Source: Spirochaetia bacterium (GTDB lineage Bacteria > Spirochaetota > Spirochaetia > CADAEX01). From it: DNA of 64,000 nt. The notes below the pieces were generated by a model, which was not told where the DNA came from, did no database searches, and saw only the letters and a list, made by a program, of their open reading frames with translations. Location: contig CAXXHA010000019.1 of the NCBI GenBank assembly GCA_963662265.2, forward strand, positions 14,820 through 78,819. Reading direction: 5' to 3'. The position numbers were made by a program, and so were the translations under genes. Below, piece by piece: positions 1 to 9,631 of the stretch; the stretch's first letter is position 1; every line of letters starts with the position of its first letter.

Positions 1-2
1 CT

Positions 3-1298
3 CTTGATTTGTATAAAAGCGTTATAAAAAGAAATCCAGATGATGACATGCTGAAGGTCCAGATAATTCCACTCTTGATAAAGACAGGAAATCAGTCTGA
101 AGCTGCAAGACTAATAGCTGAACTGACAGAGAAAAACATACCTCTGAATATAAATAACCTCAACAGCAGCGATATTAACAGAATACTTGCGATTGAATAT
201 TTCAACAAGAATAACTACAGGGAAGCTCTTCTATATGCTAAAAAAATCATACGTGAAAACTACTATGATAATGAAATGCATATGCTAATGGGGGAAATAT
301 TCAGGCAGACAGGGAGAAACGACAGGGCGGAAAACCATTTCAATCTTGTACTGAAGCGTGACAGTGACAAAAAGGAAGCAAGATACGGAAAAATAATGGT
401 TTTCTGGACTGAAGAAAGGTTTGAAGATCTCTATGATGAAATTATCAAGCTTGAAAATAAATATCCTGAAGACGAAGTAGCATATTACTACAAACCGCTT
501 GTCATGTGCAGGCTTGATTACCCGTCTGAAGAGACAATTCCGCTCATTGAAGAGGTGCTGAGGAAAAATAAAAGCGATCCATACCTGATAAATGCTGTCG
601 GATATGAATATCTGAAAACCGGAGATGCCCGGACTGCAGAACAATGGTTTAAGAATTCCCTTAAAATATCGGATATGAAAGATTCGTATACCGGCCTTAT
701 CAAGTCTTATTATAAGCAGAATAAAAAATCAGGAATCAACTCTGTTTTCAGAAAATATCTTAAGGTCTATCCTGATGACAACAAAATGAGAAAATACTAT
801 ATCAACAATCTGTACGAGCAGAAAAGTTATAAGACAGCAATACGAGAAATTGAAAAATATTCTGCATGTACCGAAAAAAGAGGCAGACTTGAAGTAATGC
901 TTGCCAAATGCTACATAAAGACTGATAATCCTGAAAAAGCAATAGTGTTATACAGGAAAATACTTTCAGAAAACCCTGACAGCATAAATTATCTTATGGC
1001 TTATTCTTACTGCCTTGAAAAGCTTGACAGGATTGATGAAGCTATTAACCTGCTGGAAAAATCAATTAAATATTTTAAAAACAACAGAAGGATACTTCTG
1101 ACAGCGGGAGTTTTATATTTCAGGCAGGCGAAATATGAAAAAGCAATGGACATATTCAGAAAAGTACTTGAAATCAGAAGCAGTGACTGGAGAGCATATT
1201 ACAATATGTCGAAAATATATGAACTTCAGGGATTAAAAGTCATGGCTGATAAATTTATGAAACATTCACAGCGTTATAAAAAAATGCTTGATAAATAA
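3..1298 (+). CDS. TPR-repeat protein (5'-truncated by window edge)
   Basis: Frame is open from the window start. Many TPR-like helical repeats, e.g. MLMGEIFRQTGRNDRAENHF, LTAGVLYFRQAKYEKAMDIF, AYYNMSKIYELQG. Confidence 0.85.
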   Translation, partial: LDLYKSVIKRNPDDDMLKVQIIPLLIKTGNQSEAARLIAELTEKNIPLNINNLNSSDINRILAIEYFNKNNYREALLYAKKIIRENYYDNEMHMLMGEIFRQTGRNDRAENHFNLVLKRDSDKKEARYGKIMVFWTEERFEDLYDEIIKLENKYPEDEVAYYYKPLVMCRLDYPSEETIPLIEEVLRKNKSDPYLINAVGYEYLKTGDARTAEQWFKNSLKISDMKDSYTGLIKSYYKQNKKSGINSVFRKYLKVYPDDNKMRKYYINNLYEQKSYKTAIREIEKYSACTEKRGRLEVMLAKCYIKTDNPEKAIVLYRKILSENPDSINYLMAYSYCLEKLDRIDEAINLLEKSIKYFKNNRRILLTAGVLYFRQAKYEKAMDIFRKVLEIRSSDWRAYYNMSKIYELQGLKVMADKFMKHSQRYKKMLDK

Positions 1299-2042: not shown

Positions 2043-4685
2043 CTATTTGGCAAGATCTTTCAGTTCAAGCTGGGCAACTGCTAGTGTTGCTATAGGAACT
2101 GAATAAGTTGAACAGGAGACATAATCGAGTCCCGCATTACGGCAGAATTCAATATTGACAGGAACTGCACCCTGTTCCCCGCAGAGTCCAAGCTTAATGT
2201 CCGGTCTTGTCATCTTTCCTCTTCGAACTGCAAAAGATACTAGTTCCTTGACACTGGGGTTTAATATTTCAAAGGGATTGGAAGGTATAATATCAAACTG
2301 GGTATAATCAGGCATGAAGTTGTTGAAATCATCCCTTGAAAGACCCAGAGTTGTCTGGGTAAGGTCATTGGTTCCGAAAGAGAAAAACTGTGCATACTGG
2401 GCAATCTCTCCTGCAGAAAGTGCTGCAGCAGGAAGTTCAATCATTGTACCGATTTTATATTCAAGCTGTCTGGCTTTTAATGTTTTTCTAAGTTCCTCTT
2501 CAGTGGTTTTTATACCGACAATAGCTGCACCTTCAATTTTTTTGCCGTAGATTAATGCTTTTACCTCTTCCTGGTTCATGACAATAGGAATCATTATTTC
2601 AGGATTTACCTTTACACCCTCTTTCTGAAGTGTGTAGGCAGCTTCAAAAATCGCATTAATCTGCATTGCATATATTTCAGGATAGGAAATAGCAATTCTG
2701 CATCCCCTGTGACCCAGCATCGGGTTGAATTCTGAGAGAGAATCACACATGGCAGCAACATCTTTCCTTGTGATCTTTTCAAAACCTTTCTGCTTTTTAA
2801 GATAAGAGATAAACTCATCCATCTCAGCAGTATTATGGGGGAGAAATTCATGAAGAGGAGCATCCATGAGCCTGATAGTAACCTCTTTTCCCTCCATGAC
2901 TTTGAAAATCTTATAGAAATCTGTTTTCTGCATCTTCTGAATTTTAGAGAGAGTTTTCTTCCGTTTTTCAAAGTTGTCGGAAAGTATCATTTCACGGAAA
3001 ACATTAATTCTTGAAGCATCGAAAAACATATGCTCTGTACGGCAGAGACCGATTCCTTCAGCCCCGAATTTCCTGGCAAGTGAAGCATCACGGGCGTTAT
3101 CAGCATTTACCCTTACATGGAAATCTTTGCTGTATTTCTTTGAAATTGCAATGAGTTCACTTATACCGGAAGATTCATAATCAGGCTCAATAAGGTCTGC
3201 CTTTCCGATATATATTACAGGATCACCGTAGTTTGGAACATTGAGAGTGATGTAATCACCTTCATTAATCACAATATCGCCGATCTGTATTTTTTTACCC
3301 TTGTATTTTATATCATGGTTGACAAGTGAAACTTTACCGTACTGTCTTGCTACTACTGATGCATGTGCCGCATAACCGCCTTCAGAAGACAGAACACCTG
3401 TTGATACTTCTATAGCCTTAACATCTTCTGCAAAAGTTGCTTCCATGCAGAGAATCATTTTTGTATCAAGATCTTTCTGATGGGCTTCTTTCTGTGCATC
3501 CAGAAGTGCTTCTGTAGAAAAGAAAATCCTTCCTATTGCAGCCCCTGGAGCACCGGCAATACCGCCTGAAATTTTCTTCAGTTTTGTAACAGAACTTGTA
3601 TTGATAATCGGATGGAGTATTTCATTGAGCTGTTCAGGTTTCAATGAGTTGATGACATATTTGTCATCTACTATTTTCCTGTTCATAAGGTCAAGAAGCG
3701 TGATAATTTCTGATTTGACACTCTTGTTTTGTACTTCCCTCTGGTCAACCATCCAGAGAGTCTTGTTTTCAATTGTAAATCTTATATGACGAATATTTTT
3801 AAAAGTATCTTCAATAGTTCTTGCGATTTTCTCAAGCTTTGTAAGATAGTTTTTCTCAATCTTATTGATATCCTTACCTTTTGTGCCTGTAAAATCAAAA
3901 GTATTCTGGAAATATTCTCCGGAAAGCTTCTTCTCGCCGCTAATGACATTCCTGGTGAAAAAGGAACCTGCAAATGATTTGTCGCCTGTATTTCCGTATA
4001 CCATTGCCTGTACACCGATTGAAGTATCATCTTCATTCATATCATCAAGAGAAAGAAGACGGCTGACTCGGGTCAATGTGTAATCAAGCTGTTCATATGC
4101 ATCTTCACAGAAACTTTCAGGTATAAACTGCTCAGCATCTGTAATCAGTTTTACCTTGTCAGCTTCCTTTATCTTTTTTCCCAGTTTCGTGTTTATATAA
4201 TCTATTACAGTCTTTATTTTTGATGCTTTTTCATCATTTTCTTCAAGTACTGATATTTTTTCCTCAATAATGAGAATACCTTTCATCAAAAAAAACAGTT
4301 CATTGTAGGCAAAGTTTTCACCCACAAGTTTACTGAATCCTGAAAAAGTATTTTTAGTAAGACCGAAATTATGAAGAGCAGGATAACTGCTTGTAATAGT
4401 AAGATTCGGGCTTATAACAACTTTCAGAGTAAGAGGTTTTGTTTCCGCGTTAAATTTCTTACCCATTTTTGTTTCTATTTTTTCAATAAAAGGATTTATG
4501 AACTTTATTATTTTTCCTGAAGCAAGAGAAGATGCAACATCGCAGTCAATTGCAAAACCTGGGACAACGGGAAGTTTAAGACTAGCAAAGTTATTTGCTT
4601 CCCGGTTTCTGCCCCCTATTTTTTCAAGAATTGACGGATTTTTTATAAACTCATTTTCACTGAAATAGTGTATGTTTTTTTTCAT
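2043..4685 (-). CDS. ppdK: Pyruvate phosphate dikinase-like protein with a degenerate ATP-grasp domain (intact phospho-His and PEP/pyruvate domains)
   Basis: Retains GGYAAHASVVAR (H441), GIGLCRTEHMF, RLMDAPLHEFLP, EFNPMLGHRGCR, FSFGTNDLTQ and GLCGE (C835). The N-domain motifs VSVRSGA, GEDVV and QDMEF are replaced. Confidence 0.85.
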   Translation of the reverse strand: MKKNIHYFSENEFIKNPSILEKIGGRNREANNFASLKLPVVPGFAIDCDVASSLASGKIIKFINPFIEKIETKMGKKFNAETKPLTLKVVISPNLTITSSYPALHNFGLTKNTFSGFSKLVGENFAYNELFFLMKGILIIEEKISVLEENDEKASKIKTVIDYINTKLGKKIKEADKVKLITDAEQFIPESFCEDAYEQLDYTLTRVSRLLSLDDMNEDDTSIGVQAMVYGNTGDKSFAGSFFTRNVISGEKKLSGEYFQNTFDFTGTKGKDINKIEKNYLTKLEKIARTIEDTFKNIRHIRFTIENKTLWMVDQREVQNKSVKSEIITLLDLMNRKIVDDKYVINSLKPEQLNEILHPIINTSSVTKLKKISGGIAGAPGAAIGRIFFSTEALLDAQKEAHQKDLDTKMILCMEATFAEDVKAIEVSTGVLSSEGGYAAHASVVARQYGKVSLVNHDIKYKGKKIQIGDIVINEGDYITLNVPNYGDPVIYIGKADLIEPDYESSGISELIAISKKYSKDFHVRVNADNARDASLARKFGAEGIGLCRTEHMFFDASRINVFREMILSDNFEKRKKTLSKIQKMQKTDFYKIFKVMEGKEVTIRLMDAPLHEFLPHNTAEMDEFISYLKKQKGFEKITRKDVAAMCDSLSEFNPMLGHRGCRIAISYPEIYAMQINAIFEAAYTLQKEGVKVNPEIMIPIVMNQEEVKALIYGKKIEGAAIVGIKTTEEELRKTLKARQLEYKIGTMIELPAAALSAGEIAQYAQFFSFGTNDLTQTTLGLSRDDFNNFMPDYTQFDIIPSNPFEILNPSVKELVSFAVRRGKMTRPDIKLGLCGEQGAVPVNIEFCRNAGLDYVSCSTYSVPIATLAVAQLELKDLAK

Positions 4686-4703
4686 TTTTAAAATTCCTCT
4701 TGA

Positions 4704-5723
4704 TTAAAATAGTTTAAGTATTGCATTAACAGGGAATTTGAGAAAATCTTCAAATCTCTGACTTGCACCCTGCTTCAGATATCGCTGAAGCTTTGCAACA
4801 TCTTTTATATCCCTGCCGGCAACTGCAAACATGATTGCACTGCCGTGTTTAACCTTTCCCCATTTGAAGAGTGTATTGATATCATGTATCCTTTCCCCTT
4901 CATAGAATATAATAACTTCAAGTCCGGGATATTTTGTTTTGTAGCTTGTTATAATTCTTTTCCATGCTTCAACATTACCGTTATGGAAAAGCTCATTTGT
5001 TACAGGAACTGAATATAGAGGAGTCATTCTTGCATTTGTAGGTACCGGAGCTGCTGATGGTTTCTGTACTTCCTGTGGCTTTGCTTCAGGAGTTTTTACT
5101 GCTGCGGTATTTTTAGCAGTTTTTGCTGATGCAGCTTTTTTTCTTCCTGCAGTTTTCTTTGGTTCAGATGTTTTCTTTGCCATTTTAACTGTATACTTCC
5201 CATTCAAGACAGAAGGCGGTACTTTATATTTTTTATTTTCAAGAATATTAATTACAGCATTTATTGCTGATACATGATTTTTACTGTTTTTACTGCCTGC
5301 ATGATCGCCGGCATATATTGTTATAAGCTCAAAATTCTTTAAACCGCCTGTAAGATTCCAGCTGTCAGCTTTTTTTGGATTAAAAACTACATAACCGATA
5401 TTCGGATTATGGTATCCAATGACAATGTCTACCCCTTTCCAGCCGGAAAGTATCTCTGTAATTTCATCAAATTTATCAAAAGTTTCCTTCATATTGTAGG
5501 ATTTGAAACTGAACCCATATTTATCCGCAAGAAGAGAGTTTACAATAGGAAGAACCTGATGCTGTTCTATTGTATTGTCATCAAGATATTCATTAATGGA
5601 ATCTGCAATGTTATCGTAAGATTCGAAGTTATCGATTATTGATAATACAGACTGGAAATGATTTAAAGAATTATTAAAACCCTTACGTGTATAAAAGCGT
5701 TCATATTCTTTTACATCAGTCAT
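4704..5723 (-). CDS. cfpA-associated protein (TP0747-like position): unknown N-domain, Lys/Ala/Pro linker, C-terminal HPr-like domain
   Basis: Likely start is ATG 5723 after AGGCAGGGT; the longer TTG start lies inside the cfpA terminator. C-terminus VPVTNELFH...EVIIFYEGERI...GKVKHGSAIMFAVAGRD aligns by eye with HPr. Confidence 0.8.
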   Translation of the reverse strand: MTDVKEYERFYTRKGFNNSLNHFQSVLSIIDNFESYDNIADSINEYLDDNTIEQHQVLPIVNSLLADKYGFSFKSYNMKETFDKFDEITEILSGWKGVDIVIGYHNPNIGYVVFNPKKADSWNLTGGLKNFELITIYAGDHAGSKNSKNHVSAINAVINILENKKYKVPPSVLNGKYTVKMAKKTSEPKKTAGRKKAASAKTAKNTAAVKTPEAKPQEVQKPSAAPVPTNARMTPLYSVPVTNELFHNGNVEAWKRIITSYKTKYPGLEVIIFYEGERIHDINTLFKWGKVKHGSAIMFAVAGRDIKDVAKLQRYLKQGASQRFEDFLKFPVNAILKLF

Positions 5724-5742
5724 GGATTTACCCTGCCTTTTA

Positions 5743-5779
5743 AAAATAGAAAAAGTTGGCAGCCTTAAAGCTGCCAACT
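5743..5779 (-). terminator. Intrinsic terminator/attenuator after cfpA
   Basis: 10-bp stem AGTTGGCAGC/GCTGCCAACT (5754-5763 and 5770-5779) with a 6-nt loop, followed on the minus strand by TTTTCTATTTTT. Confidence 0.85.
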
Positions 5780-5798
5780 GATAAGATTATTAGATTAA

Positions 5799-7844
5799 CT
5801 AAATAGTAGTAAGTTTGTTACCGGATGATTTTCTTCTTCCGGGTTTTTTCTTTTTTGAATTATCAACTATTCCTGTTGATTTTTTCCGTCCCCGTTTTGT
5901 TGGTTCAGGTTTTTCGACAGTAAGAGCCTGTTCAATTTCTGGATTTTCTGAAGATGTGTTGTTTAAGAGGTCAAGGTAGCTTTCACCTGCGTTTTCACCA
6001 TCTTCTTCCGGGAGATCAGTAGTAAAAGACTGGTTAATATCGCTTCTTACAGTAGATCTTCTTCTTGAGAATGCTGCAAATGCCGCATCCTGGAATCCTT
6101 TTGATACACCGTAAAGGAATTCATTAAGAACATTAGCCATTCCGTCAAGTGTTGCTTTTTTTCTCTTGATTGAAGTTATATCTAGATCAAGGAACAGACC
6201 AGGCTGTACATGGTACGGATTTATCATGTAGTCAAAAGAGTTGAATTTCTTTTCAAGATTATCAATTCTTTCTTCCATAACTCTTCTCTGTATCGGATAT
6301 TTGTATCCATACATTTCATGAAGCCGTTTTTTCATTATGATGAATCTCTTTTTAACCTTGTCTTTTTCAAAAACATAAGTCCTGTTGAGTTCTTCAACAC
6401 TTGTTTCTGCAGGTTTTACAAAGGAAATCTCATCCCATACTTTTTCAATATCTTCATAAACAGGATCGCCTGTCTTGGATTTAATTGTTTTTGTTATCTT
6501 GTTTTTATAAGCTTTAGCAAGATCTTCGAAATCTGTTACACCTTTGAAACGTTTCGCATCCTGATAAACCATTTCAAGAATATCCCATACATGTGAGCAT
6601 TCAACTTCGAAAGACTTGATCTGAACATCATAAGCTTTCTGCTCTTCAATAAGCTGAGCATTGTCATAGTATCTGAGTCTGATCTGGTATCTTTCATCAG
6701 GAAGGTTCTGAACATCTGTATCTTCATATTCTCTTATAAGAAGTTCTCTTCCGTTTTTAAGGTTTTCAATATACTGGTAACCCATTTTTGAAGTATCAAG
6801 AATTGAAGTAATAGAGTTTACAGCTGTGTTGTAACCCCTGTTTCTGATATTTTCGATATCAATTATTTTTTTAAGATTTTCCCTGATATTGAGCTGATCA
6901 AAACTTTCAGGATCAATTTCAGCTCTCAGACCGTCAATTGCATCCATAAGGTTTTTGGCAACCATAGAATATCTTTTTGATTTGGGACTTGTCTTGTCAT
7001 CATCAGTATGATTTTCAACAAGTTTCATCTTTTCGAAAATTATTTCACTGTCAGTCAGTTCCTCTTTACCTTCATCAATAAGAAGATCTTTAACATTTTC
7101 AATTTCTTTGTCCAGAAGATCTGTAATATTTTTTGAGATGAGTTCTTTTATAAGATATTCAACTGTAGCCTGATAATGAAAAATCGGACTGATAAGTTCA
7201 GAGTCCAGAATATTTACAGACATTTTAACATCACAAACTGTTTTAGGTTTGTATGCATTGTCTTTAAATGCACATTTAACAACTGAATATGCATTTTCAC
7301 CCCTGATAAAGGCACCTACATCTGTTTTCTGTCTAAGGAGAGAGTTAGTCAGGTTTTCAAGCTCATTAACTCCTCTCTGGATGTGGCCCTGAAGGTGACC
7401 GTACATATTAACAATCGATTTTTCAATTTCACCGGTGTTGAATTTGTCCATTCCACCGACTTCATCAAGAAGTGATGCAATTTCCTTAGGTGTATACCGG
7501 TTGAGGACTTTCATTTCCTCTTTGTCTATGAAATTTCGTACCTTTTTAACCATTTCATCTTCAGATGTAACAATATATCTGTTGAACATGTTCTGGTAAT
7601 TCTGGTTAAAATAGTTATAGACTTTTTCTTTAAGTCCACCCATTATGTCGACTTTTTCTAGAACTTCAAGAGGAAGTTTTGATGATAAGTGATTCATCAC
7701 TTTATCTACTTCTTCTGCAAGAAGTCTATCAACCTCTTCCTGCTGATCCCTGCTTTCCTGAGCAAGAGAGTTCCTGGATCCTACAGCACTGGGCTTTTCA
7801 GGATGGAAAACCATCGGGCTTTTTGGTAGATCAATACTTCCCAT
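5799..7844 (-). CDS. cfpA: Cytoplasmic filament protein A
   Basis: 681 aa helical protein with the CfpA-type N-terminus ([25 protein letters not shown]) and C-terminal [29 protein letters not shown]. Lies upstream of a ppdK homologue, as I recall for Treponema pallidum. Confidence 0.93.
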
Positions 7845-7922: not shown

Positions 7923-8263
7923 CATGTTTAATGGAAATTATATATTTTAATTAGAGAACGATTAAATCAACAAATCTGCAATTAATTAAAAATACTAATC
8001 AGATTATACGGAAAATAATTATATAATTCAAACACATTTTTTAAAAATAAGTATTTGTAATATTTTGTTCAGAATATTATGATTAAAGAGACTATGAAAC
8101 GGGTTTTTTATTTTCCGTATTTTCATTACTTATAAGGAAAATAATAATTTATAAACAACAGGCATGTTAAAAATACTGTCTGTAAAAATGACTGCAAAGA
8201 TTTAAGTAAGCAATAATATTTAAAACCCGGAAATATAGGTTTAATAATGAAAAGGTGCTTAAT

Positions 8264-9631
8264 ATGTTAAAAAAAATTATTCTCTGCTTGCTGGTTTTAG
8301 TTAATTCATTTTTTGTTTTTTCAGATGAAAGAAAGGAAAATATTGAAATATTCATACTGCTGGATAAATCTCTTTCAATGGAAAACAATATTGAAGAAGT
8401 AAAAAACTACATAGAAAGCTTCATAATTGATAAAATAATCATAGACGGCGACAGGTTGTTAATAATAAATTTCTACGGTGAAACAGAAAGATTTCTTGAT
8501 ACTGTAGTAGCAAATGAAAACGCAAGGAATGATGTTAAAAGAAGACTCGAAACAGTCTCAGCCGACGGACGTTTTACCGATATAGGAAGCGCACTGGACA
8601 GACTGAATGAAACCGCAGGTGATGAAACTGAAACACTCAGGTATATGCTTCTGATAACTGACGGTAAGCAGGAAGCTCCTCCCGGAACAAAATATTACAG
8701 CCCTGATGGAAGTTTTAACCATGAACTTCTAAAACATACAAAAACAATACAGAAGAAGGGGTGGAAAATAGAAGTACTTGGGATTGGAAAGCTGAATAAA
8801 GCAGCAGATATAGCTGAAAAACTGTCAGGTACCTATGTTGAAGTTGAAAAAGCAGATGCATTAGATCTTGCAGAAAAAACATCTGATTTTCTGACAGTTG
8901 TTTCAGTAAAAGATAAACCAGTAATTGGAAAATTAAACAGTAAAAATGAATCCTCTATGACTTTCACAGCTGTTTCCTCAAATACTGATGAAAATACTGA
9001 AATAGTAATAGAATCAATAAAGTTTTCAGACAGTAAAACTGTTTATGAAATGATAGAGGAACCTTTTGAAATTAATATAATACCTGGTACTGAAAATGAA
9101 ATAAAAATCCCGGTAAAGTTAAGCAGAGATATTGATCCCGGAACTGCAAATGGAAGCATTGAATTCTTCTATTCATCTGAAAACATTCTGACCCCTTCCC
9201 TTTTCGACATGGAATTGGTAAAAAAAGAAGGTTTCAAAGCTGTTTATATTTATATACCGGCAGTAATTATAATTATTCTGATTCTTTTTCTTTTCTTAGG
9301 CAGATATCTGAAAAAAGGGGGAAAAGAGGAGGACAGAGGTTTTGATGTTTTTATTGACAATGAAAAGCTTTCAGAAATACCATATAAACTTAAAAACAAT
9401 GAAAAACTGTTTCTGTTATTAAATACTGCAGGTGAATTATCCTTATCAAGAATAAAATCATCACTTGCAAAAGGCTATATTATAAAAACAGGAAGTAAAG
9501 TTGATTTTAAAATACTGGACAGCAAGATATTCCCTGATTTCAAGGATAAAATTGATAATATATTGGGAAAAACTGTAAATATTAAATTAAAAAGCGGTAA
9601 ATTGCTGAAAATTCTTTTTAAGAGGAAATAA
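8264..9631 (+). CDS. Secreted vWA-domain protein with C-proximal TM helix (TP0750-like)
   Basis: Signal peptide. MIDAS motif LLDKSLS...FTDIG...LLITDG. TM segment VYIYIPAVIIIILILFLFLG. Confidence 0.85.
   Translation: MLKKIILCLLVLVNSFFVFSDERKENIEIFILLDKSLSMENNIEEVKNYIESFIIDKIIIDGDRLLIINFYGETERFLDTVVANENARNDVKRRLETVSADGRFTDIGSALDRLNETAGDETETLRYMLLITDGKQEAPPGTKYYSPDGSFNHELLKHTKTIQKKGWKIEVLGIGKLNKAADIAEKLSGTYVEVEKADALDLAEKTSDFLTVVSVKDKPVIGKLNSKNESSMTFTAVSSNTDENTEIVIESIKFSDSKTVYEMIEEPFEINIIPGTENEIKIPVKLSRDIDPGTANGSIEFFYSSENILTPSLFDMELVKKEGFKAVYIYIPAVIIIILILFLFLGRYLKKGGKEEDRGFDVFIDNEKLSEIPYKLKNNEKLFLLLNTAGELSLSRIKSSLAKGYIIKTGSKVDFKILDSKIFPDFKDKIDNILGKTVNIKLKSGKLLKILFKRK

What the first reader, a model, noticed from the sequence alone, without database searches (positions are those of the whole stretch)
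2043..7844. Candidate PTS-like PEP phosphorelay wired to the spirochaete cytoplasmic filament: cfpA, HPr-like protein, EI-like pseudo-PPDK
Seen: three co-oriented adjacent genes. Gene 3 has an intact PEP-binding domain and phospho-His but a disabled ATP site. Gene 2 ends in an HPr-like domain with the acceptor His. Gene 1 is cfpA. Established: PPDK and PTS Enzyme I share homologous PEP-binding and phospho-His domains, and EI passes phosphate to His15 of HPr. CfpA forms the treponemal cytoplasmic ribbon and is implicated in division and chromosome segregation. From memory, the order cfpA-hypothetical-ppdK matches T. pallidum TP0748-TP0746, where the last gene is treated as an ordinary metabolic PPDK. 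Inference: a PPDK was repurposed as a dedicated Enzyme I (PEP to His441 to the partner His), reporting the PEP/pyruvate ratio to the cytoskeleton. No sugar-transport EII gene is nearby. I do not know of a description of such a system.
Basis: partly seen in the sequence, partly recalled or inferred. Interest (0 to 1): 0.92.

Follow-up and report, generated by a model that had tools for sequence, protein, structure and literature searches.

The report
Spirochaete filament operon with PPDK relic
Next to the gene for the spirochaete cytoplasmic filament lie, almost everywhere that filament gene occurs, a pyruvate-phosphate-dikinase copy that has lost its ATP site but kept its PEP site and phospho-histidine, and a small protein built of two HPr-like folds with one invariant histidine, which suggests an undescribed PEP-driven signalling or docking module on the bacterial cytoskeleton.

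Summary
On the minus strand lie cfpA (7844-5799), a terminator-like hairpin, a 339-aa gene (5723-4704; Pfam PF27497, 'TP_0747_N') and an 880-aa PPDK paralogue (4685-2043).

In 83 of 83 orthologues of the paralogue, the ATP/Mg positions K22, R92, D321, E323 and Q335 (C. symbiosum numbering) are replaced. H455 and the PEP-site residues stay invariant wherever the position is covered. Seven of 7 canonical spirochaete PPDKs keep all of them.

Both domains of the middle protein are predicted to fold like HPr (Z 8.0 and 7.7). The C-terminal domain carries an invariant His at the His15 position. Sequence profiles show no HPr homology.

In a sample of 401 Spirochaetota genomes, cfpA, gene 2 and the paralogue occur in the same families (148, 145 and about 141 genomes). 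Gene 2 and the paralogue are adjacent in 128 of 138 genomes.

One 1.1-Mb genome has only this paralogue, with no canonical PPDK and no pyruvate kinase.

Phosphotransfer to the partner His is plausible but unshown. The complex prediction gave no answer, and distant stand-alone relatives of the domain lack a fixed His.

Literature searches found no description of such a system.

The parts
5799..7844 (-). cfpA, the cytoplasmic filament protein (681 aa plus stop)
   Evidence: NF040882 scores 1180.5 bits against a cut-off of 500. Orthologues are 70-94% identical in 78 of 80 related loci.
5744..5779 (-). Terminator-like hairpin (11-bp stem with 6 G-C pairs, 4-nt loop, then a T-rich tail) between the cfpA stop and the gene 2 start
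   Evidence: Found by the pattern scan and seen in the sequence. A hairpin plus T-tract of differing sequence lies at the same place in 72 of 78 related loci.
4704..5723 (-). Gene 2 (339 aa plus stop), a member of Pfam PF27497 'TP_0747_N'. The start is taken as the ATG at 5723.
   Evidence: The exact 339-aa form is P0004 (100% identity). 3162 homologues reach E<=0.001, and every named one among the 120 listed is a spirochaete hypothetical protein.
5232..5513 (-). Gene 2 residues 71-164: first HPr-like fold, with no His at the His15-equivalent position
   Evidence: In the VIA-wide search of the full model, 9s8b_C (E. coli HPr) scores Z 8.0, rmsd 2.0 A, 80 of 85 residues, aligned to model residues 71..164. 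hhalign against 31 spirochaete HPr sequences gives a probability of 2%.
5040..5186 (-). Gene 2 residues about 180-228: Lys/Ala/Pro-rich linker of variable length, predicted disordered
   Evidence: pLDDT is below 50 for residues 183-223. The length and sequence vary in alignment A1.
4707..5039 (-). Gene 2 residues 229-339: second HPr-like fold, nearly invariant, with the motif NELFHNGNVEAW
   Evidence: The domain model has pLDDT 91.2. HPr chains are the top four VIA-wide matches, Z 7.7-6.8. Mean column identity is 78-81%.
4983..4985 (-). Codon of His247 of gene 2, the invariant His just before helix A
   Evidence: The codon CAT is seen. The His is invariant in A1, A2 and A4. In the model helix A starts at residue 21 and the His is residue 20.
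2043..4685 (-). Gene 3 (880 aa plus stop), a PPDK paralogue with a degenerate nucleotide site
   Evidence: TIGR01828 scores 666.9 bits, below the 843.45 cut-off.
3666..4685 (-). Gene 3 residues 1-340: domain derived from an ATP-grasp, with its catalytic residues replaced
   Evidence: K22>R in 83 of 83 orthologues and R92>V/I in 83 of 83. E323 is R in 73, K in 4, H in 2, G in 2 and M in 2. Q335 is D in 69, E in 12 and N in 2. Mean identity among orthologues is 0.51, and 0.25 to canonical PPDK.
3186..3563 (-). Gene 3 residues 375-500: swivelling phospho-His domain. The His441 codon is at 3363-3365.
   Evidence: PF00391 matches residues 408-481. H455 is kept in 83 of 83 orthologues; T453 becomes S or A and S454 becomes A. 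Mean identity is 0.69 among orthologues but only 0.33 to canonical PPDK.
2058..3128 (-). Gene 3 residues 520-876: PEP/pyruvate-binding domain, intact
   Evidence: PF02896 scores 236 bits. R561, R617, E745, N768, D769 and C831 are kept in every orthologue that covers them.

Best explanation
This is a conserved three-gene module of the cfpA-bearing spirochaetes.

What the sequences show for gene 3: it descends from PPDK and still has everything needed to take the phosphoryl group of PEP onto its swivelling His441. It has lost the residues that PPDK uses to bind ATP/AMP, Mg and PPi. It is therefore not a pyruvate,phosphate dikinase but a PEP-charged phospho-histidine protein.

What the predictions show for gene 2: it is a two-domain protein in which both domains are predicted to fold like HPr, joined by a disordered basic linker. 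The C-terminal domain is almost invariant and carries one invariant His at the structural position of HPr His15.

Inferred mechanism: PEP phosphorylates His441 of gene 3, and the phosphoryl group passes to His247 of gene 2. The phosphorylation state of this pair, which reflects the PEP/pyruvate ratio, acts on or at the CfpA filament ribbon. Gene 3 and perhaps gene 2 are physically associated with that ribbon.

Operon layout (shown): cfpA is followed by a terminator-like hairpin, so genes 2 and 3 are either read through from cfpA or transcribed apart from it.

Odds for the separate steps:
- Gene 3 is not a working PPDK: about 0.85.
- It autophosphorylates from PEP: about 0.75.
- The module acts with the CfpA filament: about 0.6.
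- Phosphate passes to His247 of gene 2: about 0.35-0.4.
For: Gene 3 residues:
- Across 83 orthologues the recalled ATP/Mg positions are replaced: K22>R in 83; R92>V in 79 and I in 4; G101 deleted, S or T; D104>P in 81; D321 never D; E323>R in 73, K in 4 and other residues in 6; Q335>D in 69, E in 12, N in 2.
- H455 and R561 are kept in 83 of 83.
- R617, E745, N768, D769 and C831 are kept in every row that covers them.
- Seven of 7 canonical spirochaete PPDKs keep all of these residues.
- The replacement residues are themselves conserved, and the N-domain is 51% identical among orthologues. That is purifying selection, not decay.
- The His domain is conserved among orthologues (0.69) but far from canonical PPDK (0.33), more so than the PEP domain (0.51). 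This fits a changed docking partner.

Gene 2:
- HPr is the best PDB fold match for both domains, Z 8.0 and 7.7 at rmsd 2.0 A, and HPr chains dominate the Foldseek lists.
- H247 is invariant and sits just before helix A.
- The two invariant stretches (NELFHNGNVEAW and LFKWGKVK) lie at the start of helix A and on helix B. From memory, that is the face HPr uses for its partners.

Genomic linkage in a sample of 401 Spirochaetota genomes:
- cfpA is found in 148, gene 2 in 145 and P0001-type matches in about 141, in the same families. None is found in families f19 (0 of 75) and f24 (0 of 38).
- 144 genomes hold both cfpA and gene 2.
- Gene 2 and gene 3 are adjacent in 128 of 138 genomes, including genomes where cfpA lies elsewhere.
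- In family f46 all three genes are dispersed yet all are kept.
- In 80 named loci, gene 3 is downstream in 80 of 80 and cfpA upstream in 78 of 80. The other two are cut by contig ends.

Published experiments (passages read):
- In T. denticola, TDE0842-0844 (cfpA, hypothetical protein, 'PPDK putative') are repressed together (PMC3914990 Table 5).
Against: - No phosphotransfer has been shown, here or in print.
- Sequence methods do not link gene 2 to HPr. Pfam PTS-HPr gives no hit at E<=0.1. A profile of the family finds no HPr chain in the PDB at E<=10. hhalign against 31 spirochaete HPr sequences gives probability 0.6% for the C-domain and 2% for the N-domain.
- The HPr active-site Arg two residues after the His (recalled signature H-x-R-P) is Gly here.
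- Fold Z-scores of 7.7-8.0 lie in the range that the tool says a common arrangement can reach.
- Distant stand-alone relatives of the C-domain (10 aligned) have no His at a fixed position, and 2 of 10 have none in the loop. They lie beside purH-like and ubiE-like genes, so the ancestral role of the domain need not be phosphocarrier.
- One genome (G347) has a gene 3 without the N-domain, and some families carry a different N-terminal part. The role of that domain is therefore unclear.
- In a few metagenome loci (L185, L188, L200, L219), cfpA and gene 2 are followed by other genes.
Confidence: 0.4

Rival explanations
1. Docking or sensor module without transfer to gene 2. Gene 3 is charged by PEP, and its phosphorylation state only switches the position of its swivel domain, and with it its binding. 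Gene 2 is an adaptor whose conserved C-domain binds CfpA or gene 3. The pair may be the unidentified bridging or anchoring parts of the filament ribbon.
For: - TDE0844 is a major band of the T. denticola envelope fraction together with CfpA (PMC3931704).
- Passages from the T. pallidum tables list ppdk and cfpA with similar values, 683/557 and 596/322.
- The title of Izard et al. 2004, seen only in a reference list, reports bridging and anchoring components whose identity I do not know.
- The C-domain (78-81% column identity) is conserved about as strongly as CfpA (70-94% identity) and more strongly than gene 3.
- Stand-alone relatives of the domain have no fixed His.
- E323>R together with Q335>D/E could be a salt bridge filling the lost metal site. 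That is my inference.
Against: - The strict invariance of a His at the HPr His15 position, inside a 12-residue invariant motif, is not needed for a mere adaptor.
- Full conservation of all PEP-site residues shows that catalysis, not only shape, is under selection.
Confidence: 0.3
2. Gene 3 is still a metabolic enzyme that turns PEP into pyruvate, with a changed second half-reaction in its remodelled N-domain (another phosphoryl acceptor, or water). Its place beside cfpA reflects co-expression only.
For: - G102 is a 1.1-Mb single-contig genome, 99% complete, of the same class. It has only this paralogue (608.5 bits) and no match over the PPDK cut-off. It has no pyruvate kinase match.
- Papers treat TP0746 as the glycolytic Ppdk (passages).
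- The N-domain is under purifying selection, and its new residues R26, V90, Y101, P102, R302 and D314 are conserved.
Against: - G102 has a GTP-type PEP carboxykinase (544 bits) and an oxaloacetate decarboxylase alpha subunit (939.6 bits). A route from PEP via oxaloacetate to pyruvate therefore exists without this protein.
- Four of the 5 genomes tested keep a canonical PPDK beside it, and so does the window's own genome.
- The N-domain is missing in G347 and remodelled in other families.
- This reading does not explain the near-perfect co-occurrence with cfpA and gene 2.
Confidence: 0.15
3. Gene 3 is an alternative Enzyme I for the ordinary HPr or for other targets, and gene 2 only regulates or localises it.
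For: - Every genome tested has a canonical HPr (5 of 5; 60 of 61). The HPr of G102 keeps GVHARP and KS.
- The Enzyme I of G102 matches only in pieces and barely passes the cut-off (345.7 against 341.7 bits).
Against: - Gene 3 is built on the PPDK plan. I did not look for the helical HPr-binding subdomain of Enzyme I, so its absence is an inference from architecture.
- HPr occurs throughout the phylum, including the families without cfpA, so it does not share the module's distribution.
- The window's genome has four Enzyme I-like genes of its own.
Confidence: 0.1

Closest known systems
Pyruvate,phosphate dikinase (PPDK; TIGR01828; C. symbiosum 1dik, maize 1vbg)
   Same: The three-domain order and length are the same, and it aligns end to end (E 1e-142 to 1e-145). 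The swivelling His and all PEP/pyruvate-site residues are kept.
   Different: It scores below the equivalog cut-off. K22, R92, G101, D104, D321, E323, Q335 and the QGEDVVAG motif are replaced or deleted. TSH becomes S/A-A-H. It is always an extra copy linked to cfpA, except in one reduced genome.
PTS Enzyme I with HPr (and the regulatory PTS-Ntr pair EI-Ntr/NPr)
   Same: It would use PEP to charge a swivelling His and then a His at the start of helix A of a small HPr-fold domain. As in PTS-Ntr, no transporter is attached. The PEP domain matches EI at E about 1e-20.
   Different: Gene 3 scores 115 bits against an EI cut-off of 341.7 and has an ATP-grasp relic in place of the EI N-terminal arrangement. 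Gene 2 has two HPr-like folds in a 339-aa protein, no sequence match to HPr, and no Arg after the His. The link is to a cytoskeletal filament gene.
VadK (Rv1127c) of Mycobacterium tuberculosis, a PPDK-derived autophosphorylating histidine kinase (PMC13400623, abstract and outline read)
   Same: A PPDK descendant that left central metabolism for a regulatory phospho-His role.
   Different: From memory, and not checked in the paper, VadK keeps the ATP-grasp and His domains and lacks the PEP domain, so it is charged by ATP. Here the opposite half is kept, so PEP would be the donor.
Rifampin phosphotransferase (PMC4844700, passages read)
   Same: A PEP-utiliser relative in which a swivel His domain serves a new acceptor site. 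One subdomain of that site resembles HPr.
   Different: It has a working ATP-grasp, its acceptor is a small molecule, and it is a single polypeptide.
CfpA cytoplasmic filament system of treponemes
   Same: Gene 1 is CfpA. Loss of cfpA gives chromosome condensation and filamentation (PMC3398590, passages read).
   Different: That paper describes the filaments as having 'single protein composition'. The two downstream genes have not been tied to them in any paper found.

Membership tests
CfpA (NCBIfam NF040882) | Whole-protein score over the curated cut-off of 500 bits | tested here: met
   1180.5 bits over profile positions 1-604 of 605.
PPDK (NCBIfam TIGR01828 equivalog) | Whole-protein score over the curated cut-off of 843.45 bits | tested here: not met
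   666.9 bits. The canonical copy in the same genome scores 1329 bits.
PPDK | Nucleotide/Mg-site residues of the ATP-grasp domain. The list K22, R92, G101, D321, E323, Q335, R337 is recalled from Ye et al. 2001. Only K22 was seen in print, in PMC4844700. | tested here: not met
   Six of the 7 are replaced in the window's protein, and consistently so in 83 orthologues. Seven of 7 canonical spirochaete PPDKs keep all of them.
PPDK / PEP-utilising enzymes | Catalytic His on the mobile domain, and the PEP/pyruvate-site residues R561, R617, E745, N768, D769, C831 | tested here: met
   All are kept in the window's protein and in every orthologue that covers them. PF00391 and PF02896 are over their cut-offs.
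PTS Enzyme I (TIGR01417) | Whole-protein score over 341.7 bits | tested here: not met
   115.2 bits, restricted to the PEP domain. The genome has four true EI-like genes scoring 407-623 bits.
PTS Enzyme I | Helical HPr-binding subdomain beside the phospho-His domain | not tested
   No structure model of gene 3 was made, because both prediction jobs went to gene 2. Absence is inferred from its end-to-end alignment with PPDK.
HPr (Pfam PF00381) | Sequence match to the family profile | tested here: not met
   No PF00381 hit at E<=0.1. No HPr chain at E<=10 with the family profile. hhalign probability is 0.6% for the C-domain and 2% for the N-domain against 31 spirochaete HPr sequences.
HPr | Open-faced beta-alpha-beta-beta-alpha-beta-alpha fold | tested here: inconclusive
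   HPr chains are the best PDB matches for both domains (Z 8.0 and 7.7, rmsd 2.0 A, 78-80 of 85 residues). Z is below 8, Foldseek E-values are 0.018-0.3, and the structures are predicted models.
HPr | Phospho-acceptor His at the N-terminal end of helix A | tested here: met
   Met for the C-domain, judged by secondary-structure landmarks only. The His is model residue 20 and helix A starts at 21. The aligned ranges are model 7..95 to chain 1..85. The His is invariant. The N-domain has no His there.
HPr | Arg two residues after the His (signature H-x-R-P, recalled) | tested here: not met
   The motif is F-H-N-G-N-V, with Gly at +2, and is invariant. All 31 spirochaete HPr sequences collected have H-A-R-P. 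They were picked with that motif, so this count is circular.
Pfam PF27497 (TP_0747_N) | Family assignment | not testable with these tools
   The local Pfam copy lacks the model. The assignment is the database's precomputed one for P0004 and all 120 listed homologues. The name comes from the Atlas clusters, where it covers 94-98% of members.

The most novel reading that the evidence does not exclude
All cfpA-bearing spirochaetes carry a dedicated PEP-driven phospho-histidine relay that reports the PEP/pyruvate state of the cell to the cytoplasmic filament ribbon, and so to division and nucleoid handling. The relay runs from a PPDK relic acting as a private Enzyme I to the invariant His of a tandem-HPr-fold protein. 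In reduced genomes of the G102 type, the only gene annotated as PPDK is this relay protein and not an ATP-yielding glycolytic enzyme. By inference the same would hold for the treponeme whose genes named the family (TP0746-TP0748), and its energy budget would then need redrawing.
Probability: 0.3. Interest if true: 0.9.

Novelty: new variant of a known kind. Interest (0 to 1): 0.75.

Why it matters
1. Annotation and metabolism. A whole orthologous group is annotated as pyruvate,phosphate dikinase: TDE0844, and by inference TP0746, which papers describe as making ATP from PEP, AMP and PPi (PMC10013896). That group lacks the residues for the nucleotide half-reaction. In the one reduced genome examined, this paralogue is the only PPDK-like gene and there is no pyruvate kinase. 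Models of energy yield in such spirochaetes may rest on an enzyme that cannot do the reaction.

2. Filament biology. The treponemal cytoplasmic filament has a strong mutant phenotype but no known accessory or regulatory proteins. These two genes share its phylogenetic distribution almost exactly, and one of them co-fractionates with it. They are the obvious candidates.

3. Phosphorelay wiring. If the His-to-His transfer is real, it would be a PTS-like relay wired to a cytoskeleton, assembled from a PPDK rather than from Enzyme I. It would be the mirror image of the recently described PPDK-derived kinase VadK.

All of this can be tested with standard biochemistry and with T. denticola genetics.

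Tried and rejected
- **Complex prediction** (collected). Full gene 3 (alignment A3, 36 rows) was folded with the gene 2 C-domain (A4, 36 rows). Scores were 0.13 and 0.05 against a mark of 0.32. The verdict was 'no answer' and no controls were run. I do not count it either way. The N-domain of gene 2 and CfpA were not tested as partners, because only one job is allowed and the limit is 1000 residues.
- **Sequence links to HPr.** All negative or insignificant. The short hhalign alignments were in the structurally expected register, but at P 0.02-0.1, so I do not use them.
- **Profile of the C-domain against 1.84 billion representatives**. 131 proteins reached E<=0.001. They were the family itself, fragments, a set of about 110-130-aa stand-alone relatives, and three long repeat proteins (P0232, P0245, P0247). 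On reading, those three are surface-repeat proteins matched through many short stretches, so I rejected them as false.
- **Fused forms of gene 2.** None was found among proteins of 595-2000 aa. The tool itself calls this weak evidence.
- **Stand-alone relatives.** None of the 26 loci L148-L172 and L176 has a cfpA or PPDK-like match. Of the 5 longer ones examined, 3 have a purH-like gene upstream and 3 a ubiE-like gene downstream.
- **RNA.** Two metatranscriptome runs labelled marine sediment (X1, X2) hold 0.10 and 0.07 of the sampled words. Short contigs with 0-2 differences lie on all three genes. Contigs in an RNA library do not prove transcription and say nothing about levels or ends, so I draw no conclusion on read-through of the hairpin or on habitat.
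- **Tree.** A maximum-likelihood tree of the PPDK set did not finish in its call and I did not repeat it, so I make no claim about monophyly or origin.
- **Promoters.** Promoter-like sites were no more frequent than in shuffles (23 against 26.9), so I name no promoter.
- **Papers not held.** PMC94139, PMC2519799 and PMC94976 could not be read. The cfpA papers of Izard and of You are therefore known to me only from a reference list and from memory.
- **Supplements.** These are closed. From memory, a published two-hybrid map of T. pallidum may list partners of TP0746-TP0748 in its supplements. I could not check this.
- **Claims that something is not in print** rest on these searches: TP0747/PF27497 found in 0 papers; TP0746/TDE0843/TDE0844 in 6 papers, all of which treat the gene as PPDK or merely list it; and the searches.

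Full report
**Anatomy**

The region 2043-7844 holds three genes on the minus strand.
- Gene 1 runs from 7844 to 5799 and is cfpA. NCBIfam NF040882 scores 1180.5 bits against a cut-off of 500.
- Twenty bases after its stop lies a strong terminator-like hairpin at 5779-5754. It has an 11-bp stem with 6 G-C pairs, followed by a T-rich tail.
- The TTG at 5777 that the ORF list gives as the start of gene 2 lies inside this hairpin. The ATG at 5723 has a purine-rich stretch before it and gives the 339-aa form that is on record (P0004, 100% identical). I therefore take gene 2 as 5723-4704.
- Gene 3 starts 18 bases after the gene 2 stop (4685-2043).
- The flanking genes encode a TPR protein, an unassigned protein, a VWA-domain protein, a hexapeptide transferase and a DHH phosphoesterase. 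No PTS permease gene lies nearby.

**Gene 3 is a PPDK that has lost its nucleotide site**

P0001 aligns end to end with solved PPDKs (E 1e-142 to 1e-145). It matches the PPDK equivalog TIGR01828 over positions 3-864. Its score of 666.9 bits is below the 843.45 cut-off, and Pfam PPDK_N matches only residues 273-325.

I anchored numbering on chain 1dik_A, whose index 455 is the catalytic His.
- The window's protein has K22>R, R92>V, G101>S, D321>H, E323>R and Q335>D, and it keeps R337.
- The QGEDVVAG stretch is replaced and shortened.
- That these positions form the ATP/Mg/phosphate site is my recollection of Ye et al. 2001. Only Lys22 was seen in print here (PMC4844700, passages).
- The catalytic His (H441) and the PEP/pyruvate-site residues R561, R617, E745, N768, D769 and C831 are kept.

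**The pattern holds for the whole orthologous group**

I took every stop-to-stop frame in loci L001 and L021-L118 that matched P0001 at E<=1e-50. There were 101, and I dropped 8 that were shorter than 560 aa. I then aligned 83 orthologues (including the window's own protein), 7 canonical spirochaete PPDKs and 4 oddities.

| Position (1dik numbering) | 83 orthologues |
|---|---|
| K22 | R in 83 |
| R92 | V in 79, I in 4 |
| G101 | gap in 75, S in 6, T in 2 |
| D104 | P in 81 |
| D321 | never D |
| E323 | R in 73, K in 4, H in 2, G in 2, M in 2 |
| Q335 | D in 69, E in 12, N in 2 |
| H455, R561 | kept in 83 |
| R617, E745, N768, D769, C831 | kept in every row that covers them; the rest are gaps from cut contigs |

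The 7 canonical PPDKs have the canonical residue at every position.

The replacements are themselves conserved, so the N-domain is under selection for something else. Mean identity by domain is as follows.

| Domain | Among orthologues | Orthologue to canonical PPDK |
|---|---|---|
| N-domain | 0.51 | 0.25 |
| His domain | 0.69 | 0.33 |
| PEP domain | 0.68 | 0.51 |

The His domain has moved unusually far from canonical PPDK.

The N-domain is not sacred. In G347 the gene is a 587-aa frame with only the mobile and PEP domains, and it still lies next to gene 2. In some families a 965-972-aa form has a different N-terminal part.

**Gene 2**

It has no hit in the local Pfam or NCBIfam copies.
- The big protein collection holds 3162 relatives at E<=0.001.
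- All 120 listed carry PF27497, and all named ones are spirochaete hypothetical proteins.
- The Atlas gives the family name as TP_0747_N.

A model built from 34 sequences (pLDDT 77) shows three parts:
- a helical start followed by a beta-alpha-beta-beta-alpha-beta-alpha domain (residues 71-164);
- a disordered Lys/Ala/Pro-rich linker of variable length;
- a second domain of the same secondary-structure order (residues 232-325).

Searching 48,161 PDB representatives with the full model put HPr chains first, aligned to residues 71-164. The best was 9s8b_C at Z 8.0, rmsd 2.0 A, 80 of 85 residues.

The C-terminal domain modelled alone (39 sequences, pLDDT 91.2) also had HPr as its four best matches. 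Their Z-scores were 7.7, 7.4, 6.9 and 6.8, and the first unrelated row scored 6.3. Foldseek lists are likewise dominated by HPr, but with E-values of only 0.018-0.3.

It is not a statistically secure one.

Sequence methods give nothing:
- no PF00381 hit;
- no HPr chain at E<=10 with the family profile;
- hhalign probability 0.6% for the C-domain and 2% for the N-domain against 31 spirochaete HPr sequences.

**The histidine**

The C-domain is the most conserved part of the whole cluster, with 78-81% mean column identity.
- The motif NELFHNGNVEAW is invariant or nearly so.
- His247 is present in 34 of 34, 39 of 39 and 36 of 36 aligned rows, and by eye in all 87 distinct C-domain sequences printed.
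- His293 is replaced in 3 of the 87, and His280 varies.
- In the model His247 is residue 20 and helix A begins at 21. With aligned ranges of model 7..95 to HPr 1..85, this puts it where His15 caps helix A in HPr. I could not inspect coordinates, so this rests on landmarks.
- The residue two places on is Gly, not the Arg of the HPr signature (recalled).
- The N-domain has no His at the equivalent place.

**A caution from distant relatives**

The C-domain profile, run against 1.84 billion representatives, found only 131 proteins. Among them is a set of about 110-130-aa stand-alone proteins that share the EAW helix, the LFK helix and the C-terminal LF.
- In 10 aligned members the His is not at a fixed place, and 2 have none in the loop.
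- Their loci hold no cfpA or PPDK-like gene (26 loci).
- Three of 5 longer loci have a purH-like gene upstream, and 3 of 5 a ubiE-like gene downstream.

The fold family is thus not tied to PEP-utilising enzymes in general.

**Distribution and linkage**

A scan of one genome per species found 532 stretches encoding a relative of gene 2. In the best 80, all uncultured Spirochaetia and relatives, a P0001 orthologue lies directly downstream in 80 of 80. cfpA lies upstream in 78 of 80, and the other two are cut within 350 bases.

In an even sample of 401 Spirochaetota genomes:
- cfpA was found in 148, gene 2 in 145 and P0001-type matches (584 bits or more) in about 141;
- all fall in the same families, and none in families f19 (0 of 75) and f24 (0 of 38);
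- 144 genomes have both cfpA and gene 2. Four have only cfpA, and their completeness is 82-100%, with partial or contig-end matches in two of them. One has only gene 2.

From the listed rows:
- Gene 2 and gene 3 are adjacent on one strand in 128 of 138 genomes. Of the 10 exceptions, 6 are in family f46 and 4 are at contig ends.
- cfpA and gene 2 are adjacent in 118 of 141.
- Where cfpA lies elsewhere (genus g40, G233, G325, G010), genes 2 and 3 stay together.
- In f46 all three are dispersed but kept.

A hairpin plus T-tract of unrelated sequence lies between cfpA and gene 2 in 72 of 78 loci. The layout 'filament gene, terminator, two accessory genes' is therefore itself conserved.

**Relation to the ordinary enzymes**

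The window's genome has all of the following:
- a canonical PPDK (1329 bits);
- four Enzyme I-like genes, one of them fused to HPr;
- two stand-alone HPr genes;
- pyruvate kinases.

Of 5 other genomes tested, 4 have both a canonical PPDK and the paralogue, and all 5 have HPr.

G102 is a 1.1-Mb single-contig genome, 99% complete.
- It has only the paralogue and no pyruvate kinase.
- Its copy shows the same degenerate pattern: R, V, gap, P, E, R, E.
- It also has a GTP-type PEP carboxykinase and an oxaloacetate decarboxylase alpha subunit. PEP can therefore reach pyruvate without this protein.
- It has a divergent Enzyme I and a normal HPr.

**Literature**

- TP0748 is cfpA and TP0746 is called the glycolytic Ppdk. 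It is said to 'most likely' make pyruvate and ATP from PEP, AMP and PPi (PMC8525777 and PMC10013896, passages).
- In T. denticola, TDE0842-0844 are cfpA, a conserved hypothetical protein and 'PPDK, putative', and they are repressed together (PMC3914990 Table 5).
- TDE0844 is band 1 and CfpA band 3 of the 16 major envelope-fraction proteins (PMC3931704 Table 2). This is an odd place for a soluble glycolytic enzyme, but the expected place for something bound to the membrane-anchored filaments.
- cfpA mutants show chromosome condensation and filamentation (PMC3398590).
- No paper was found that mentions TP0747 or PF27497, or that questions the PPDK assignment.
- VadK of M. tuberculosis is a PPDK descendant that became a regulatory histidine kinase (PMC13400623, abstract).

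**Reading**

Shown by sequence and comparison:
- Gene 3 cannot be expected to carry out the nucleotide half-reaction of PPDK, but it keeps the PEP half-reaction and its His.
- Genes 2 and 3 form a tight pair whose distribution is that of cfpA.
- Gene 2 has one invariant His in an invariant motif.

Predicted:
- Both gene 2 domains fold like HPr.
- The His sits at the His15 position.

Inferred:
- PEP charges His441.
- The phosphate goes to His247.
- The pair acts at the filament.

I put about 0.4 on the full relay and 0.3 on a docking or sensor role without transfer. I put 0.15 on a still-metabolic enzyme with a changed second half-reaction, and 0.1 on an alternative Enzyme I for ordinary HPr. 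The one complex prediction allowed gave no answer.

Noticed in passing
L156:3191-3577, L172:5734-6279, L154:6001-6354, L170:3286-3639 (metagenome loci): A family of stand-alone proteins of about 110-130 aa is distantly related to the gene 2 C-domain. It repeatedly lies between a purH-like (AICARFT/IMPCHase) gene and a ubiE-type methyltransferase gene. It has no conserved His and no known function.
   Followed up: partly
L102 (G347:C1:2405500-2412000); cfpA match at G347:C1:2249885-2251645: In one complete 4.1-Mb genome the gene 3 orthologue lacks the whole N-terminal domain (587-aa frame) but still follows gene 2. Its cfpA lies 158 kb away, in an open frame of 2159 aa with one TAA inside.
   Followed up: partly
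L104 (G018), L117 (G044) and other genomes of families f27, f13 and f35: These gene 3 orthologues are 965-972 aa long. BLAST alignment to P0001 begins only at about residue 160-178, so the first part of the N-domain is replaced or greatly diverged. Pfam sees no PPDK_N at all in the one scanned (L104).
   Followed up: partly
window 8255-9628 (+); L185:7046-8284: A VWA-domain gene is transcribed divergently from cfpA in the window. A VWA-domain gene also follows cfpA and gene 2 in a lineage (L185, L188, L200, L219) where the PPDK relic is not directly downstream.
   Followed up: no
G000 contigs C6, C1, C8, C10 (loci L013-L016) and C32:136750-140468: The window's genome carries four Enzyme I-like genes, including an 869-aa HPr-EI fusion and an 817-aa form. 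It also has two pyruvate kinase genes 2 kb apart.
   Followed up: no
G145, G245 (same family f1, genus g2; 1.5-1.7 Mb; 99% complete): The two other sampled genomes of the window's own family lack cfpA, gene 2 and the PPDK relic altogether. The module has therefore been lost as a unit in close relatives with small genomes.
   Followed up: no
L103 (G078:C2:24000-31500): This is a fast-evolving copy of the module. The gene 3 orthologue is only 39% identical to P0001, with K22>L, E323>L and R337>Y, and His293 of gene 2 is replaced by Ser.
   Followed up: partly
window 2237-2430: RNA-library contigs of two marine-sediment runs pile up at very high summed depth (444 and 320) on one 194-base bin at the 3' part of gene 3 (the conserved PEP domain). 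This most likely comes from other organisms' PEP-utilising genes.
   Followed up: no
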